DNA of 64,000 nt, taken from Candidatus Altimarinota bacterium (GTDB lineage Bacteria > Patescibacteriota > Gracilibacteria > CAIRYL01 > GCA-016699755). Of the stretch, positions 5,409-53,199 are shown piece after piece. The notes under the pieces were generated by a model. That model was not told the DNA's origin, searched no databases, and saw only the letters and a list, made by a program, of their open reading frames with translations. The position numbers and the translations under genes are program-made. The stretch is from NCBI GenBank assembly GCA_963664295.1, contig OY760935.1, positions 960,001 through 1,024,000 of the forward strand, in the 5' to 3' direction. Every line of letters begins with the position of its first letter. Positions within the stretch are counted from its first letter, which is position 1.

Positions 5409-5483
5409 GGCCAGGTAGCTCAGTGGTAGAGCAATGGACTGAAAATCCATGTGTCGGCAGTTCAATTCTGCCCCTGGCCACCA
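5409..5483 (+). tRNA. tRNA-Phe(GAA)
   Basis: GGCCAGG/CCTGGCC acceptor, GCTC/GAGC D stem, CTGAAAA loop, TTCAATT T loop, encoded CCA. Confidence 0.96.
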
Positions 5484-5653
5484 TTTTTGGTGTTTATTGC
5501 TCTACGCAATGGACTGGCTAATTGTAAATGGCCATGTGTCGGCAGTTCAATTCTGCCCCTGGCCACCATTTTTGGTGTTTATTGCTCTACGCAATGGACT
5601 GGCTAATTGTAAATGGCCATGTGTCGGCAGTTCAATTCTGCCCCTGGCCACCA
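5484..5653 (+). repeat. Two identical 85-bp tandem units, each ending in the 37-nt 3' end of tRNA-Phe
   Basis: 5484-5568 equals 5569-5653; each ends ccatgtgtcggcagttcaattctgcccctggccacca. Confidence 0.95.
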
Positions 5654-5655
5654 TT

Positions 5656-5803
5656 CGCTTAGTGAGAATTACGACCCGCAACGGAGCGACCGAGTGAATA
5701 ACGAGGGCGCGGAGTGGAGGGGAAATTATTTGTAATAAAATCGTGATCTTTTACACACAGTAAAAGTCGATTTTTTAAAAATAATTTAGTAATTTCCTAA
5801 GTG
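5656..5803. repeat. Nested imperfect inverted repeat / structured element (~150 nt)
   Basis: cttagtgagaattac...gtaatttcctaag; aaattatttgtaataaaatcg...cgattttttaaaaataattt; cttttac-acaca-gtaaaag. Confidence 0.6.
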
Positions 5804-23230: not shown

Positions 23231-24540
23231 AACCAACTATTCTTTTATTAGCAGCTGGAAGGTCTTCTCGTATGGAACCGCTTAGTAATAAAATTTTTGC
23301 AAAATATTTAGGCAAAGAATTAATTGTTCATCAATTTGAGCACATCTTAGGTGCTGGTTTTGAAAAATTTATTATTGTTGGAAATGAAATTAATATTAAT
23401 AAACTAAAATCACTAATTAAGCCTAATAAAAAAGTTATGGTGGACTTTGTGGTGCAACCAGATTTAAATGAGGGAATTAAGGGGGCTGTTCTTTCTGCTC
23501 AAAAAAAAATAAACAGCAAAGAGCCAATAATAATTATTAGTTCAAATGATTATGTGGAAAAAACAGCTTATAAAAAACTTCTAGAAGAAGCCAAAAAAAC
23601 AAATAATGAAATAATTATTATTGGTAAAACTGTGGATAAGTATTTTCCAGGTGGATATCTTGAGTTAAATTCAAAAAAACAAATAAAAAAAATTGTGGAA
23701 AAACCAAAACCAGGACAAGAGCCTAGTAACTTAGTAGCTTTAATGGTTCAATACTTTAAAAATCCTCAAAACTTAATGGAAACTTACCAAAAAGTGACAA
23801 ATCAACACGATGATGCCCATGAACAAGCTATGCAAATACTTTTCGATCAAAAAATTAACTCAAGTGTTGTTGAGTATCAAGGTTGTTGGCAGGCAATAAA
23901 ATATCCGTTTCATCAATTGGTTTTAACTACACGCGCACTTGATTTAATTAAAAAAACCTTTATCCACCCAAAAGCTGAGGTCTCTAAAAAGGCCTCTATA
24001 AATGGTAATTGTTATATTGAAGAAGGTGTAAAAATATTTGATTTTGCGGTTATACAAGGACCTTGTTATATAGGAAAAAACACTATTATTGGCAACCATT
24101 CCTTAGTTCGTAATTCTCACATTGGAGAAAATTGTGTTATTGGTAGTGGGTGCGACATTTGTAGGTCTTATTTTAGTTCTCATGTTTGGACTCATCAAAA
24201 TTTTATTGGTGATTCAATAATAGAAAGTAATGTTTCATTTGGGGCAGGTGCTCGCACAGCAAACCTAAGACTTGATGAAGAAAATATAGAAATGACCATA
24301 AAAGGAAACAGAATTAATAGTAATAGTAATAAATTAGGGGCTTTTATTGGTAAAAATTCACGCATAGGAATTAATACTTCAATTATGCCGGGAATTAAAA
24401 TTGGTAGGAATAGTTTTATTACCTCAGGAATTGTTGTGGATAAAAATATTCCTGAAAAAAGCTTTATTAAAAAAGAAAATAAACTACTTATTAAAAGTAA
24501 TTTTAAAAAACTTAAACATAGAAATAGTTTTGAACAATGA
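23227..24540 (+). CDS. GlmU-like sugar-1-phosphate nucleotidyltransferase/acetyltransferase
   Basis: LAAGRSSRMEPL, IVEKP, hexapeptide repeats, GAGARTANLR. Confidence 0.85.
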   Translation: MKPTILLLAAGRSSRMEPLSNKIFAKYLGKELIVHQFEHILGAGFEKFIIVGNEININKLKSLIKPNKKVMVDFVVQPDLNEGIKGAVLSAQKKINSKEPIIIISSNDYVEKTAYKKLLEEAKKTNNEIIIIGKTVDKYFPGGYLELNSKKQIKKIVEKPKPGQEPSNLVALMVQYFKNPQNLMETYQKVTNQHDDAHEQAMQILFDQKINSSVVEYQGCWQAIKYPFHQLVLTTRALDLIKKTFIHPKAEVSKKASINGNCYIEEGVKIFDFAVIQGPCYIGKNTIIGNHSLVRNSHIGENCVIGSGCDICRSYFSSHVWTHQNFIGDSIIESNVSFGAGARTANLRLDEENIEMTIKGNRINSNSNKLGAFIGKNSRIGINTSIMPGIKIGRNSFITSGIVVDKNIPEKSFIKKENKLLIKSNFKKLKHRNSFEQ

Positions 24541-24720
24541 ATAATTTTTTTTAACACTTAGTTTTGTTTTTGTTTACTTTCTTTTTTTTATAAATTTTTT
24601 GTTCATTATTAATTTATTTTTAATAATTACTATTGTTTGTTTTTATTATTTTTTTTGTTTAATTGTAGTTATTTTTTTGAATAATTTTTTTTAACACTTA
24701 GTTTTGTTTTTGTTTACTTT
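24538..24720 (+). repeat. 43-bp perfect direct repeat (24538-24580 and 24678-24720) in an extremely AT-rich intergenic region
   Basis: The two 43-bp segments are identical, 140 bp apart. Confidence 0.9.
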
Positions 24721-51900: not shown

Positions 51901-53097
51901 TATGAATTATCAGCCGGAGTGCGAGCTAAAGGTTGGCAAGCAGGTGTACAGACCAGACACACAGATATTCAAGACAGCATTAAGGCTAACTTGGGGATTA
52001 ATCTTACTGAAAAAGCTCAACTTAATATTGAAGGTGGAGCAACAAATATAACAGACGATATGGTTATGGAGCCTGATAATTATTATGGTCAAATTGGCGT
52101 AAGCATTCCTTTGGGTGGCTCTAAAGAAAAGTCAGTAAAACCAGTTGTAGCCTCAGCGATAGACAGCTTAAGACAAACAGTTTTTACTCACTTAGGACAT
52201 ATTGATCCAAAGCCAAAAGCGACTATGGCTATTAAAAAAACAGAAAAAGCAAATGAGGGTCCAGGGGTAATGATTATTGGTGCAAACAGAACGGTTCCAG
52301 GAAAAGCAGAAGAGTACATTGCTTCAGCATATGATTATGAGGGAGACAAGATTGTAAGTTATGATTTTAAAATTGTTAGCTCTACAGGTTTTGATGGTGG
52401 CAATATCGCTTATTGGCAACATTTTGTAGGTGAGCCACACAAAGTGAGTCTTAAATTCTCAACTCCTGACTCAGGAAATGGTAGTGCTACATTGCAATGT
52501 GTTGTCACTGATGAATATGGTAATTCAACAACAGAAACACTTTTAATTACAATTTCAGAAGGACAAAATCCAAGAAATCCTAGTAGCAACCCAAATGTTA
52601 ATCCTAAAGACGACACAGACCCAGGAAACCCTGGTAGTGACCCAAATGTTACTCCAAATGATCCAAGCAACACAGGTGATCCTAGTATTCCACCAGTAAC
52701 TCCTGGAGATGGACAAGACACAGAAAATCCTAGCACTCCACCAGTAACTCCTGGAGATGGACAAGACACAGAAAATCCTAGCACTCCACCAGTAGGCCCT
52801 GGAGATGGACAAGACACAGAAAATCCTAGCACTCCACCAGTAGGCCCTGGAGATGGACAAGACACAGAAAATCCTAGCACTCCACCAGTAACTCCTGGAG
52901 ATGGACAAGACACAGAAAATCCTAGCACTCCACCAGTAACTCCTGGAGATGGACAAGATTCAGGTGATCCTAGCACTCCACCAGTAACTCCTGGAGATGG
53001 ACAAGACACAGAAAATCCTAGCACTCCACCAGTAGGCCCTGGAGATCCAAACGATCCAAATCAACCAACTACACCACCATTTACACCTTTTGAATAA
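48994..53097 (+). CDS. 1367-aa protein: coiled coil, hydrophobic segment, two LysM-like domains, putative beta-barrel, Ig-like domain, Pro/Thr repeats
   Basis: IKEGDTLGQIA and VKKGDYLFKM; alternating G/aromatic strands ending YYGQIGVSIPLGG; VTDEYGNSTT Ig motif. Confidence 0.7.
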   Translation: MKNTANKRPVDSWESAGTQKKQENLRSIEGGISSEMATAEITVERERAKTSLGVERQLAVLPSLVEDKTASLTDQQKKLAQRYCFVSNKAQESDEKLEQAEARLLEAEQKLTNNSLPAKYQKQVKAELENAQRAYEKAKKAQEKDSERLQKLLNQNGFTTLVSDLDLDNPKNKQAIAGEVNRSNVHKIKAKEGVLSVAMGKLSLATLTPLNAGEIAHAIRYCVPRDKRSRMLNNVYLYNSRALAVCELHEEIHELDKTIIPLQKAMEEVGVNDPKYAEYEDRLVKANKKSEVLNERLLKLLKKGDRLHGAIFSALKKVGVEIEQKEESEASIKASQQGILNSFKGLETKLKAGNVSAKKMEADLQPIMTHLLLLRGVTQNAKDGKLNLKAKEQKAFEILGDKLPIIEDALNSILDTLEESEQAQKTKKGFLSKVKGFLRKPKAKKVAKVAMLTMATLSVNSGIITDAVSDFFSELNDLDLGDSDFAKALQNAFAGLADGLDNIGDSALASESTTLSSGVKAEQIKEGDTLGQIADKMSVDNWQNLQVSEDGGQTWTSAEKINEYAIQPGWLVATDGAQQSAPIISNDYQTETVKKGDYLFKMLDRMPGANSLDDLEISMNGGVSWTRYGDFNNPNYLEPGWQVRTATQNISTQTASFTETHIDPPQNTEQIEVVENSGEIKLRASASVKEANLPQARPQAKEIIRADIGTATKVDSATIIVPGENDDIPGQMERRLDPVNMPQTERTFFNGNVLVGGGVSYFNGQVGSHGEAYAGGDHFAIGAEAGYASDNAYASPSAGYFSDNFDLAVKAMFAKGKLKSALSLPNGDHVFETEHTKTGVGSHLGVNLGSGPVKRAEVTLGYEKTSSEDAGSASFRADNGDLFKYDVKAEGATEKFGKVNLISNPFQLGGGWTANSNVGVLHESLNFDEPTGYKLTDNGEDFTTPVVGASVESSGKTQWKFAGEMGANYYELSAGVRAKGWQAGVQTRHTDIQDSIKANLGINLTEKAQLNIEGGATNITDDMVMEPDNYYGQIGVSIPLGGSKEKSVKPVVASAIDSLRQTVFTHLGHIDPKPKATMAIKKTEKANEGPGVMIIGANRTVPGKAEEYIASAYDYEGDKIVSYDFKIVSSTGFDGGNIAYWQHFVGEPHKVSLKFSTPDSGNGSATLQCVVTDEYGNSTTETLLITISEGQNPRNPSSNPNVNPKDDTDPGNPGSDPNVTPNDPSNTGDPSIPPVTPGDGQDTENPSTPPVTPGDGQDTENPSTPPVGPGDGQDTENPSTPPVGPGDGQDTENPSTPPVTPGDGQDTENPSTPPVTPGDGQDSGDPSTPPVTPGDGQDTENPSTPPVGPGDPNDPNQPTTPPFTPFE
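52681..53046 (+). repeat. 48-bp coding tandem repeat (7 full copies + partial; PSTPPVTPGDGQDTEN)
   Basis: Units start at 52681, 52729, 52777, 52825, 52873, 52921, 52969 and 53017. Confidence 0.93.
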
Positions 53098-53114
53098 AGA
53101 AAATAATTTTTTTC

Positions 53115-53143
53115 TTGACAATAACTGAAAAATTACAGAAAAT
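53115..53143 (+). promoter_or_regulatory. Promoter TTGACA-17-GAAAAT
   Basis: Perfect -35, 17-bp spacer, upstream of 53200. Confidence 0.6.
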
Positions 53144-53199
53144 TAAAACCTTTTCCCAATATTTTCTAAAAAACAATCTTTTAATTTTAATAAGTCACC

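What the first reader, a model, noticed from the sequence alone, without database searches (positions are those of the whole stretch)
5409..5653. tRNA-Phe followed by two 85-bp tRNA-mimic units with a rewritten anticodon loop
Seen: each unit keeps gcaatggactg and the whole 37-nt 3' part (T arm, acceptor 3' strand, CCA), but the tRNA's aaaat is replaced by gctaattgtaaatgg. The insert can form a new stem, tggcta/tggcca, closing the 8-nt loop attgtaaa that contains a Tyr-like U-GUA-A. The novel 5' part has its own hairpin (attgc-tctac-gcaat), and tggtg can pair with cacca. A simple attL/attR scar would not explain sequence kept on both sides of a replaced loop. Inference: tRNA-like RNAs (decoys for anticodon nucleases, or processing/regulatory units), or relics of integration within the anticodon loop.
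Basis: partly seen in the sequence, partly recalled or inferred. Interest (0 to 1): 0.72.

Follow-up and report, generated by a model that had tools for sequence, protein, structure and literature searches.

The report
Fold-back scars behind a tRNA-Phe gene
The two 85-base repeats behind this phenylalanine tRNA gene are real and consist almost wholly of forward and inverted pieces of the tRNA itself; they are likely scars of DNA breakage and fold-back repair, probably driven by a small selfish nuclease, of a kind found beside over half of this bacterium's tRNA genes, and not decoy tRNAs.

Summary
Two identical 85-bp units follow tRNA-Phe (5409-5483); contig depth fits 2-3 copies. Their 'novel' 5' part is an inverted copy of the tRNA's own positions 71-75 and 18-31, so each unit reads antisense, sense, 15-nt plug, sense 3' half. 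The units are not tRNA mimics by any test run: no Rfam/ARAGORN hit, the proposed cloverleaf is 4 kcal/mol worse than the best fold and buries CCA, the 'Tyr anticodon' is uninformative, and the unit recurs in 0 of 400 related genomes. It is one member of a genome-wide family: 20 of 37 tRNA genes have fragments of themselves alongside; 12 of 16 trailers with a 3' fragment, Phe included, have a hairpin centred 19-21 nt past CCA; the plug motif recurs only at tRNA-Lys units. A tiny GIY-YIG nuclease gene sits in such units at tRNA-Pro, and directly behind tRNA-Phe in 2 of 7 family relatives. Best reading: nuclease-associated break, fold-back repair, recent tandem duplication (the nuclease's role is inferred). 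This scan noted the class before on other DNA; my nine literature searches did not find it.

The parts
5409..5483 (+). Intact tRNA-Phe(GAA) gene with encoded CCA; the only tRNA-Phe in the genome
5484..5568 (+). Unit 1 (85 bp): antisense pieces, sense piece, plug, sense 3' half
5488..5492 (-). Inverted copy of tRNA positions 71-75; pairs with the preceding CCA end over a 4-T loop (first fold-back, inferred)
5492..5505 (-). Inverted copy of tRNA positions 18-31 (12 of 14, exact 10-mer); with 5506-5514 it forms a 9-bp hairpin centred 20 nt past CCA
5506..5516 (+). Direct copy of tRNA positions 23-33 (end of D stem, anticodon stem 5' strand)
5517..5531 (+). 15-nt plug replacing tRNA positions 34-38; 5516-5533 resembles the reverse complement of the fold-back loop of the tRNA-Lys(CTT) units
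5532..5568 (+). Direct copy of tRNA positions 39-75 (anticodon stem 3' strand, T arm, acceptor 3' strand, CCA)
5569..5653 (+). Unit 2, identical to unit 1 (recent tandem duplication, inferred)
5657..5760 (+). Terminal structured module that also follows the last fragment at tRNA-Gly(TCC) (98% over 104 nt) and tRNA-Lys(CTT) (94% over 79 nt), with shorter pieces at other tRNA loci

Best explanation
The units are built from forward and inverted pieces of the adjacent tRNA-Phe gene plus a 15-nt plug, and are likely non-functional DNA scars of a break in or just behind the tRNA gene, probably cut by a small tRNA-linked GIY-YIG nuclease, repaired by fold-back (template-switch) synthesis and later duplicated in tandem. 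Steps. (1) Shown: the order intact tRNA, inverted 71-75, inverted 31-18, direct 23-33, plug, direct 39-75. (2) Inferred: synthesis turned back at the CCA end, copied the tRNA in antisense, turned again at the D-stem inverted repeat and resumed in sense, giving an inverted triplication; most of the inverted middle (positions 70-32) and six bases at the second turn were then deleted, as long palindromes are unstable. (3) Inferred: the anticodon loop of the dead copy was replaced by a short motif shared with the tRNA-Lys units. (4) Inferred: recombination or slippage across the 37-bp direct repeat made the second identical unit. (5) Inferred from association only: the break came from the 80-100 aa GIY-YIG nuclease family that sits in such units at tRNA-Pro here and behind tRNA-Phe in relatives. 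The intact gene stays first in the transcript and is predicted to fold before the units are made.
For: Antisense arm: cognate tRNA ranks 1 of 37, 0 of 100 shuffles reach the score; exact 10-mer, 11 of 20,000 by chance. Family: 20 of 37 tRNA genes have an exact copy of 12 nt or more of themselves within 600 nt, against 60 of 7,684 non-cognate pairs; many are tandem arrays of 2-4 copies. Antisense arms downstream in 10 of 37 tRNAs here and 5 of 27 in relative G003; 8 of those 10 and 4 of those 5 lie within 5 nt of the mirror position predicted from the trailer hairpin, so they are long decayed inverted duplications. Hairpin axis at +19 to +21 in 12 of 16 trailers with a 3' fragment, Phe at +20, against 2 of 20 without and 7 of 189 fragment-free trailers in relatives. 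Plug motif found only at the 2 Phe units and 2 Lys(CTT) units; 1 hit in 10 simulated genomes. Shared terminal module. GIY-YIG: two 82-aa copies in 321-bp units with 5' tRNA-Pro fragments; directly behind tRNA-Phe in 2 of 7 family relatives, one followed by a plugged dead tRNA-Phe; in seven relatives 9 of 15 tRNA rows beside a GIY-YIG gene have fragments against 22 of 204 others. Antisense arms decay without pairing-preserving bias: 15 G-U against 16 A-C in 19 arms. Precedent: phage SegB (GIY-YIG) cuts within tRNA genes and its nuclease activity is needed for tandem amplification there (PMC13096335, section 9).
Against: No nuclease gene lies at this locus; the nearest tRNA-linked one is about 480 kb away, and no cleavage by this family was shown. 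The Phe unit differs from the majority type: its long antisense piece is not in register with the +20 axis, the break is in the anticodon loop rather than the T loop, and tRNA-Phe lacks the SegB-type motif. With symmetric scoring the Phe arm ranks only 2 of 36. The plug motif was defined after seeing both sequences, and looser versions are barely enriched (12 against 2-11, and 27 against 15-24). Both substitutions in the Phe antisense arm keep pairing as G-U, as selection on an RNA helix would give (n = 2). Antisense arms were absent downstream in six of seven relatives, including three (G005, G010, G011) that have nuclease genes and fragments, so fold-back is not a constant product of the nuclease. 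A fixed +20 axis and scaffold bases shared across phyla look more like an inherited element than chance repair. The association count uses related genomes, the top 30 loci per genome, and includes two dead copies that ARAGORN called as tRNAs.
Confidence: 0.55

Rival explanations
1. Same scar anatomy but no nuclease: spontaneous template switching at tRNA stems and trailer hairpins makes small inverted triplications, which slippage amplifies; the GIY-YIG genes merely share the hotspot.
For: All junctions fall at tRNA stems or hairpins; no nuclease or integrase at the locus; inversions at short inverted repeats arise by replication error alone (PMC4417113 and PMC4689423, passages); the Phe unit is a one-off among 400 genomes.
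Against: Does not explain the fixed +20 axis, the plug and terminal modules shared between different tRNA loci, the same T-loop unit in MAGs titled Alphaproteobacteria and Muribaculaceae, or the large spread between relatives (0 of 31 to 11 of 33 rows with fragments).
Confidence: 0.2
2. The units are the gene-less form of a mobile element whose tRNA-specific antisense arm is functional: as RNA or single-stranded DNA it guides or splints the nuclease, or the repair step, onto the cognate tRNA gene.
For: Antisense arms match their own tRNA on both sides of the plugged loop while keeping shared scaffold bases; fixed geometry from the CCA end; cross-phylum occurrence of the T-loop type; T-loop plugs fold with recurring symmetric purine-rich internal loops.
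Against: No G-U bias, and many pairing-breaking changes in the arms; nuclease-containing units examined at tRNA-Pro here and at tRNA-Phe in G005 and G007 show no antisense arm; six of seven relatives lack downstream arms.
Confidence: 0.12
3. The units act in the precursor RNA, tuning tRNA-Phe maturation: the extra 3' halves compete for the acceptor stem and the small hairpin on the CCA end masks it or terminates transcription.
For: At equilibrium the 5' acceptor strand is predicted to pair with the unit's 3' strand once unit 1 is complete (native acceptor probability 0.0); terminator-like hairpin at each CCA; the E. coli tyrT repeats are transcribed (recalled).
Against: Any duplicated 3' half would do this; the antisense arm alone does not disturb the cloverleaf (D stem 0.88, anticodon stem 0.84); terminator-like count 2 against 1.0 +/- 0.9 expected; not conserved.
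Confidence: 0.06
4. One reading: each unit is an 85-nt tRNA mimic with a Tyr-like loop that titrates anticodon nucleases.
For: T arm and CCA are intact; the short units at seven loci have a tRNA-like period of 80-85 nt.
Against: No tRNA model hit; cloverleaf disfavoured and CCA paired; loop has 8 nt and an uninformative triplet; no conservation.
Confidence: 0.04
5. Relic of an integrative element that recombined in the anticodon loop (attR remnant), later deleted and duplicated.
For: A displaced 3' fragment downstream in the same orientation and an anticodon-centred site are the usual pattern (PMC4383910, passages).
Against: Sequence on both sides of the loop is kept while the loop is replaced; the inverted pieces are unexplained; the genome has one tyrosine recombinase, about 190 kb away; no match in viral contigs.
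Confidence: 0.03

Closest known systems
SegB of phages T4/T6, a free-standing GIY-YIG endonuclease in a tRNA gene cluster (PMC13096335; passages and section 9 read)
   Same: GIY-YIG gene beside tRNA genes; cuts within tRNA genes; its activity yields tandem amplification of the tRNA locus.
   Different: Here a bacterial chromosome, an 82-aa protein with only the catalytic domain, many dispersed tRNA loci, dead plugged fragments with inverted arms; no cutting shown; tRNA-Phe lacks the SegB motif.
Inverted triplications: tandem inversion duplication (Kugelberg et al. 2010, recalled, not held), ODIRA (PMC4689423, passages), replication U-turns (PMC4417113, passages)
   Same: Sense, antisense, sense order with turns at short inverted repeats and later loss of palindromic parts.
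   Different: Those span kilobases, or are transient junctions; here under 100 bp, confined to tRNA genes, with plugs and a fixed axis.
Displaced tRNA fragments at the ends of genomic islands (PMC4383910, PMC9897764; passages)
   Same: Intact gene plus same-orientation 3' fragment downstream; anticodon-loop and T-loop positions.
   Different: No integrase or island; loop replaced; inverted arms; 5'-fragment units upstream of other tRNAs as mirror images.
E. coli tyrT distal repeats (rtT RNA) and similar tRNA-linked tandem repeats (recalled; search listing only)
   Same: Tandem units behind a tRNA gene, each ending in the tRNA's 3' sequence.
   Different: Those units are longer and carry only the last bases of the tRNA (recalled); no inverted tRNA copy or plug is known to me.
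REP/REPIN elements with RAYT transposases (recalled)
   Same: Short palindromic modules repeated at many intergenic sites, with a small nuclease acting in trans.
   Different: No Y1_Tnp gene in this genome; the modules are confined to tRNA loci.

Membership tests
tRNA or tRNA mimic | Scores with a tRNA covariance model or ARAGORN | tested here: not met
tRNA or tRNA mimic | 7-bp acceptor stem with free CCA | tested here: not met
   Only 5 bp, which pair the CCA itself. A hybrid stem with the real tRNA's 5' strand is predicted in the precursor.
tRNA or tRNA mimic | 7-nt anticodon loop on a 5-bp stem | tested here: not met
   8-nt loop on 6 bp, in some folds only
tRNA or tRNA mimic | Expressed as a discrete RNA | not testable with these tools
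   No RNA run listed; no evidence either way
Inverted triplication (TID-like) | Sense, antisense, sense order of one segment | tested here: met
Inverted triplication (TID-like) | Turns at pre-existing short inverted repeats | tested here: inconclusive
   Fits the CCA-end hairpin and the D stem only if a 39-nt and a 6-nt deletion are assumed; the long antisense piece is not in register with the +20 axis
Integrase attachment-site remnant | Same-orientation end fragment on the expected side | tested here: met
Integrase attachment-site remnant | Integrase or island between gene and fragment | tested here: not met
SegB-like tRNA-linked GIY-YIG cassette | GIY-YIG gene adjacent to the tRNA gene | tested here: not met
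   Absent at this locus; present at tRNA-Pro and behind tRNA-Phe in G005 and G007
SegB-like tRNA-linked GIY-YIG cassette | Nuclease cuts within tRNA genes | not testable with these tools
   Needs biochemistry; SegB precedent only
REP/REPIN-RAYT | Y1_Tnp (RAYT) gene in the genome | tested here: not met
tRNA group I intron | Intron core in the anticodon loop | tested here: not met
   15-nt insert; no Rfam hit

The most novel reading that the evidence does not exclude
The Phe units are the smallest form of an undescribed, cross-phylum tRNA-gene-targeting mobile element in which a stand-alone GIY-YIG nuclease measures a fixed 20 nt from the tRNA's CCA end, and each insertion re-templates an antisense copy of its new target tRNA that then serves as the guide: a self-reprogramming system that has colonised over half the tRNA genes of this genome.
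Probability: 0.12. Interest if true: 0.85.

Novelty: new variant of a known kind. Interest (0 to 1): 0.4.

Why it matters
As a locus it is probably inert. As a specimen it shows that in this small-genome bacterium tRNA genes are repeatedly broken and rebuilt by a process with fixed geometry (hairpin axis 19-21 nt past CCA, in-register inverted copies, loop plugs shared between loci). That gives a direct assay for the abundant, uncharacterised stand-alone GIY-YIG proteins: does the tRNA-Pro-linked enzyme cut tRNA genes, and where relative to CCA? It also warns that such units can be mistaken for tRNA mimics, att sites or, by ARAGORN, for tRNA genes.

Tried and rejected
Assembly artefact: disfavoured by contig depth. 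tRNA mimic and Tyr anticodon: rejected. General RNA-level antisense pairing: G-U against A-C test flat, 15 against 16 in the 19 top-ranked arms; the Phe arm itself was not among them because it ranked 2. Antisense promoter made by T loop plus plug: a -35/-10-like pair exists on the minus strand of each unit, but 3 sites were found against 2.1 +/- 1.5 expected, and by eye the spacing does not hold in other units. Conservation of the Phe unit: 0 of 400 class genomes; looser pattern 3 of 400, none with a sense copy or the matching D-arm sequence; metagenomes 2 hits, one a fragment with a short upstream duplication and one an ordinary fragment; viral contigs 0. Viral relatives of the nuclease: only four 16-residue matches, not followed. 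Integrase or RAYT as the agent: rejected. Sequence homology of the terminal module to T-loop plugs: not significant in 6 of 7 comparisons, weak in one (21 of 2,000 shuffles), although the predicted folds look alike. Expression: no RNA holder listed. The seawater runs X4 and X5 did not cover the units; not usable. The 82-codon ORF across the repeats (5449-5697) was not searched for homologues and is taken as incidental. Kugelberg 2010 and Williams 2002 could not be read; statements on them are recalled. No supplements were read.

Full report
Setting. The window lies in G000, one contig of 1,215,430 bp, 33.5% G+C, rated 100% complete. Its size, and the presence of the same kind of T-loop unit in a MAG titled Peregrinibacteria, suggest Patescibacteria; that is an inference. 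The tRNA-Phe gene (5409-5483) sits between a divergent polyprenyl glycosylphosphotransferase gene and an S-layer-homology protein gene.

Observation. Confirmed. Two identical 85-bp units follow the gene. Each holds tRNA positions 23-33 and 39-75 exactly, with 15 nt in place of 34-38. Contigs assembled separately from three runs of one sample carry the unit at roughly 2-3 times flank depth, so it is unlikely to be an assembly error, though that sample may be the source and no listed piece spans the array.

What the 5' part is. It is the tRNA again, inverted. 5488-5492 is the reverse complement of positions 71-75 and folds onto the preceding CCA; 5492-5505 is the reverse complement of 18-31 at 12 of 14 positions. 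The exact 10-mer is reached by 11 of 20,000 random 22-mers. Against all 37 tRNAs the cognate one ranks first when G-U is rewarded and second of 36 when G-U and A-C are scored alike. The five-base hairpin loop is itself the antisense of 18-22, so this is a copied stretch and not just a stem. Only four T residues and the plug are not derived from the tRNA.

It is not a tRNA mimic. Rfam's tRNA model gives no hit on the units at E up to 10 and ARAGORN none. The unit was not found in 400 class genomes; a generic version hit 3 of 400, all chance on inspection; the metagenome scan gave 2 unrelated fragments and the viral scan none. Expression could not be tested.

It is one of a family. 20 of 37 tRNA genes in G000 have an exact copy of 12 nt or more of themselves within 600 nt, against 60 of 7,684 non-cognate pairs. 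Downstream units carry 3' fragments, upstream units 5' fragments, often with plugs in the D, anticodon or T loop, and many are tandem arrays. Downstream antisense arms scoring 20 or more occur at 10 of 37 tRNAs here (6 ranked first; non-cognate pairs reach 20 in 87 of 1,282, inflated by shared T arms) and 5 of 27 in G003, but at none in six other relatives. For 8 of the 10 and 4 of the 5 the arm lies within 5 nt of the mirror position given by the trailer hairpin, so the trailer is one long, decayed inverted duplication; Phe and Arg(CCT) are the exceptions. The hairpin axis lies 19-21 nt past CCA in 12 of 16 trailers with a 3' fragment, Phe at exactly 20, against 2 of 20 without, and in relatives 3 of 18 against 7 of 189. 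Upstream units at fMet, Ser(GCT) and Ser(GGA) show the mirror arrangement, sense then antisense, by inspection. The Phe plug with its edges matches the reverse complement of the fold-back loop of the Lys(CTT) units; that pattern has 4 hits in the genome, 2 Phe and 2 Lys, and 1 in 10 simulated genomes, but it was defined after the fact and looser forms are barely enriched. A 104-nt module after unit 2 also follows the last fragment at Gly(TCC) and Lys(CTT). A T-loop-plugged unit with a tRNA-specific antisense arm and shared scaffold bases occurs in records titled Alphaproteobacteria and Muribaculaceae; binning errors were not excluded.

The likely agent. At tRNA-Pro(TGG) two 321-bp units each join a 5' tRNA fragment to an 82-aa GIY-YIG gene. 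Among seven family relatives, two have such a gene directly behind tRNA-Phe, one followed by a dead tRNA-Phe with two plugs and preceded by plugged 5' fragments; none has the unit seen here. Over the top 30 tRNA loci of each of seven relatives (219 ARAGORN rows), 9 of 15 rows beside a GIY-YIG gene have fragments against 22 of 204 others; the genomes are related, neighbouring tRNAs share genes and two rows are dead copies, so the test overstates. The genome has one tyrosine recombinase, about 190 kb away, and no Y1_Tnp. Phage SegB, also GIY-YIG, cuts within tRNA genes and is required for tandem amplification there (PMC13096335; passages and section 9). That is a precedent, not proof; tRNA-Phe here lacks SegB's motif.

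Mechanism. Shown: the order of pieces, their identity to the tRNA, the family statistics, the presence of the nuclease gene elsewhere. Inferred: a break at or behind the gene; synthesis turning back at the CCA end and again at the D stem to give an inverted triplication of the kind described for replication errors at short inverted repeats (PMC4689423 and PMC4417113, passages; the Salmonella paper was not held and is recalled); deletion of most of the inverted middle; replacement of the loop by the shared motif; and a recent tandem duplication. The arms decay without favouring G-U over A-C (15 against 16 in 19 top-ranked arms, Phe not among them), which argues against selection on RNA pairing for the family; the two changes in the Phe arm are both G-U compatible, too few to weigh. 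The fixed axis and cross-phylum scaffold are not well explained by pure accident and keep the 'inherited, retargeted element' reading alive.

Known or new. The parts have precedents: displaced tRNA fragments (PMC4383910, PMC9897764; passages), tyrT-type repeats (recalled), inverted triplications, SegB. Nine full-text searches (listings and abstracts' starts only) did not return a description of this combination in bacterial chromosomes; most subscription journals are outside that library. Earlier notes of this scan report the nuclease-plus-plugged-fragment class in many other genomes and, twice, inverted tRNA snippets. Two notes on this genome treated the Ser and His arrays as isolated local scars; the genome-wide counts here say they belong to one family. 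I had reached the family and nuclease reading before seeing those notes. What this locus adds is the in-register inversion, the +20 axis and the plug shared with tRNA-Lys.

Verdict. Real feature; decoy reading not supported; likely an inert scar of a tRNA-targeting, nuclease-associated process. New variant of a known kind, interest 0.4.

Noticed in passing
G000:C1:482718-483287 (-); L001, L002: Two identical 321-bp units upstream of tRNA-Pro(TGG), each a 5' tRNA fragment with a palindromic anticodon-arm plug followed by an 82-aa GIY-YIG gene.
   Followed up: yes
G000, trailers of 12 tRNA genes: The first hairpin after CCA is centred at +19 to +21, mostly with a 3-nt loop such as GAA or AAA closed by C-G; such triloops are stable in single-stranded DNA (recalled), hinting at a DNA-level signal.
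   Followed up: partly
G000 Phe, Glu(CTC), His, Tyr, fMet, Ser(GCT), Ser(GGA) arrays: Short units have periods of 80-85 bp although the tRNAs are 75-93 nt long; unexplained.
   Followed up: no
G000 T-loop plugs at Ala, Met, Lys; window 5657-5740: Plugs and the terminal module fold as nested stems with symmetric purine-rich 3x3 internal loops despite little sequence similarity.
   Followed up: partly
L248, L250: The T-loop unit with antisense arm occurs behind tRNA-Lys and tRNA-Arg in records titled Alphaproteobacteria and Muribaculaceae; in L250 the dead 3' fragment differs from the present tRNA, like an older allele.
   Followed up: partly
G000 behind Leu(GAG) 97554, Met 844360, Thr(GGT) 1133475, and within the Ser(GGA) and Lys(CTT) arrays: A second shared G+C-rich multi-hairpin module follows tRNA ends without any tRNA fragment; tandem at Leu(GAG).
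   Followed up: no
L014 (G005) 464-546 and L047 (G005): ARAGORN calls plugged dead copies of tRNA-Phe and tRNA-Ala as genes; an annotation hazard.
   Followed up: partly
G000:C1:622611-622832 (-); L003: A further short GIY-YIG frame (103 aa) about 10 kb from the nearest tRNA; context not examined.
   Followed up: no
window 52574-53149: Tandem array with a 48-bp period, probably a protein repeat.
   Followed up: no
window 24538-24580 and 24678-24720: Perfect 43-bp direct repeat, 140 bp apart, in A+T-rich DNA.
   Followed up: no
G000:C1:748048-748482 (-): tmRNA called at 435 nt, longer than usual, with tag ending RLQPAYA.
   Followed up: no
window 5606-5635 and 5521-5550 (-): T loop plus plug give a -35/-10-like pair on the minus strand in each unit; not above chance.
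   Followed up: partly
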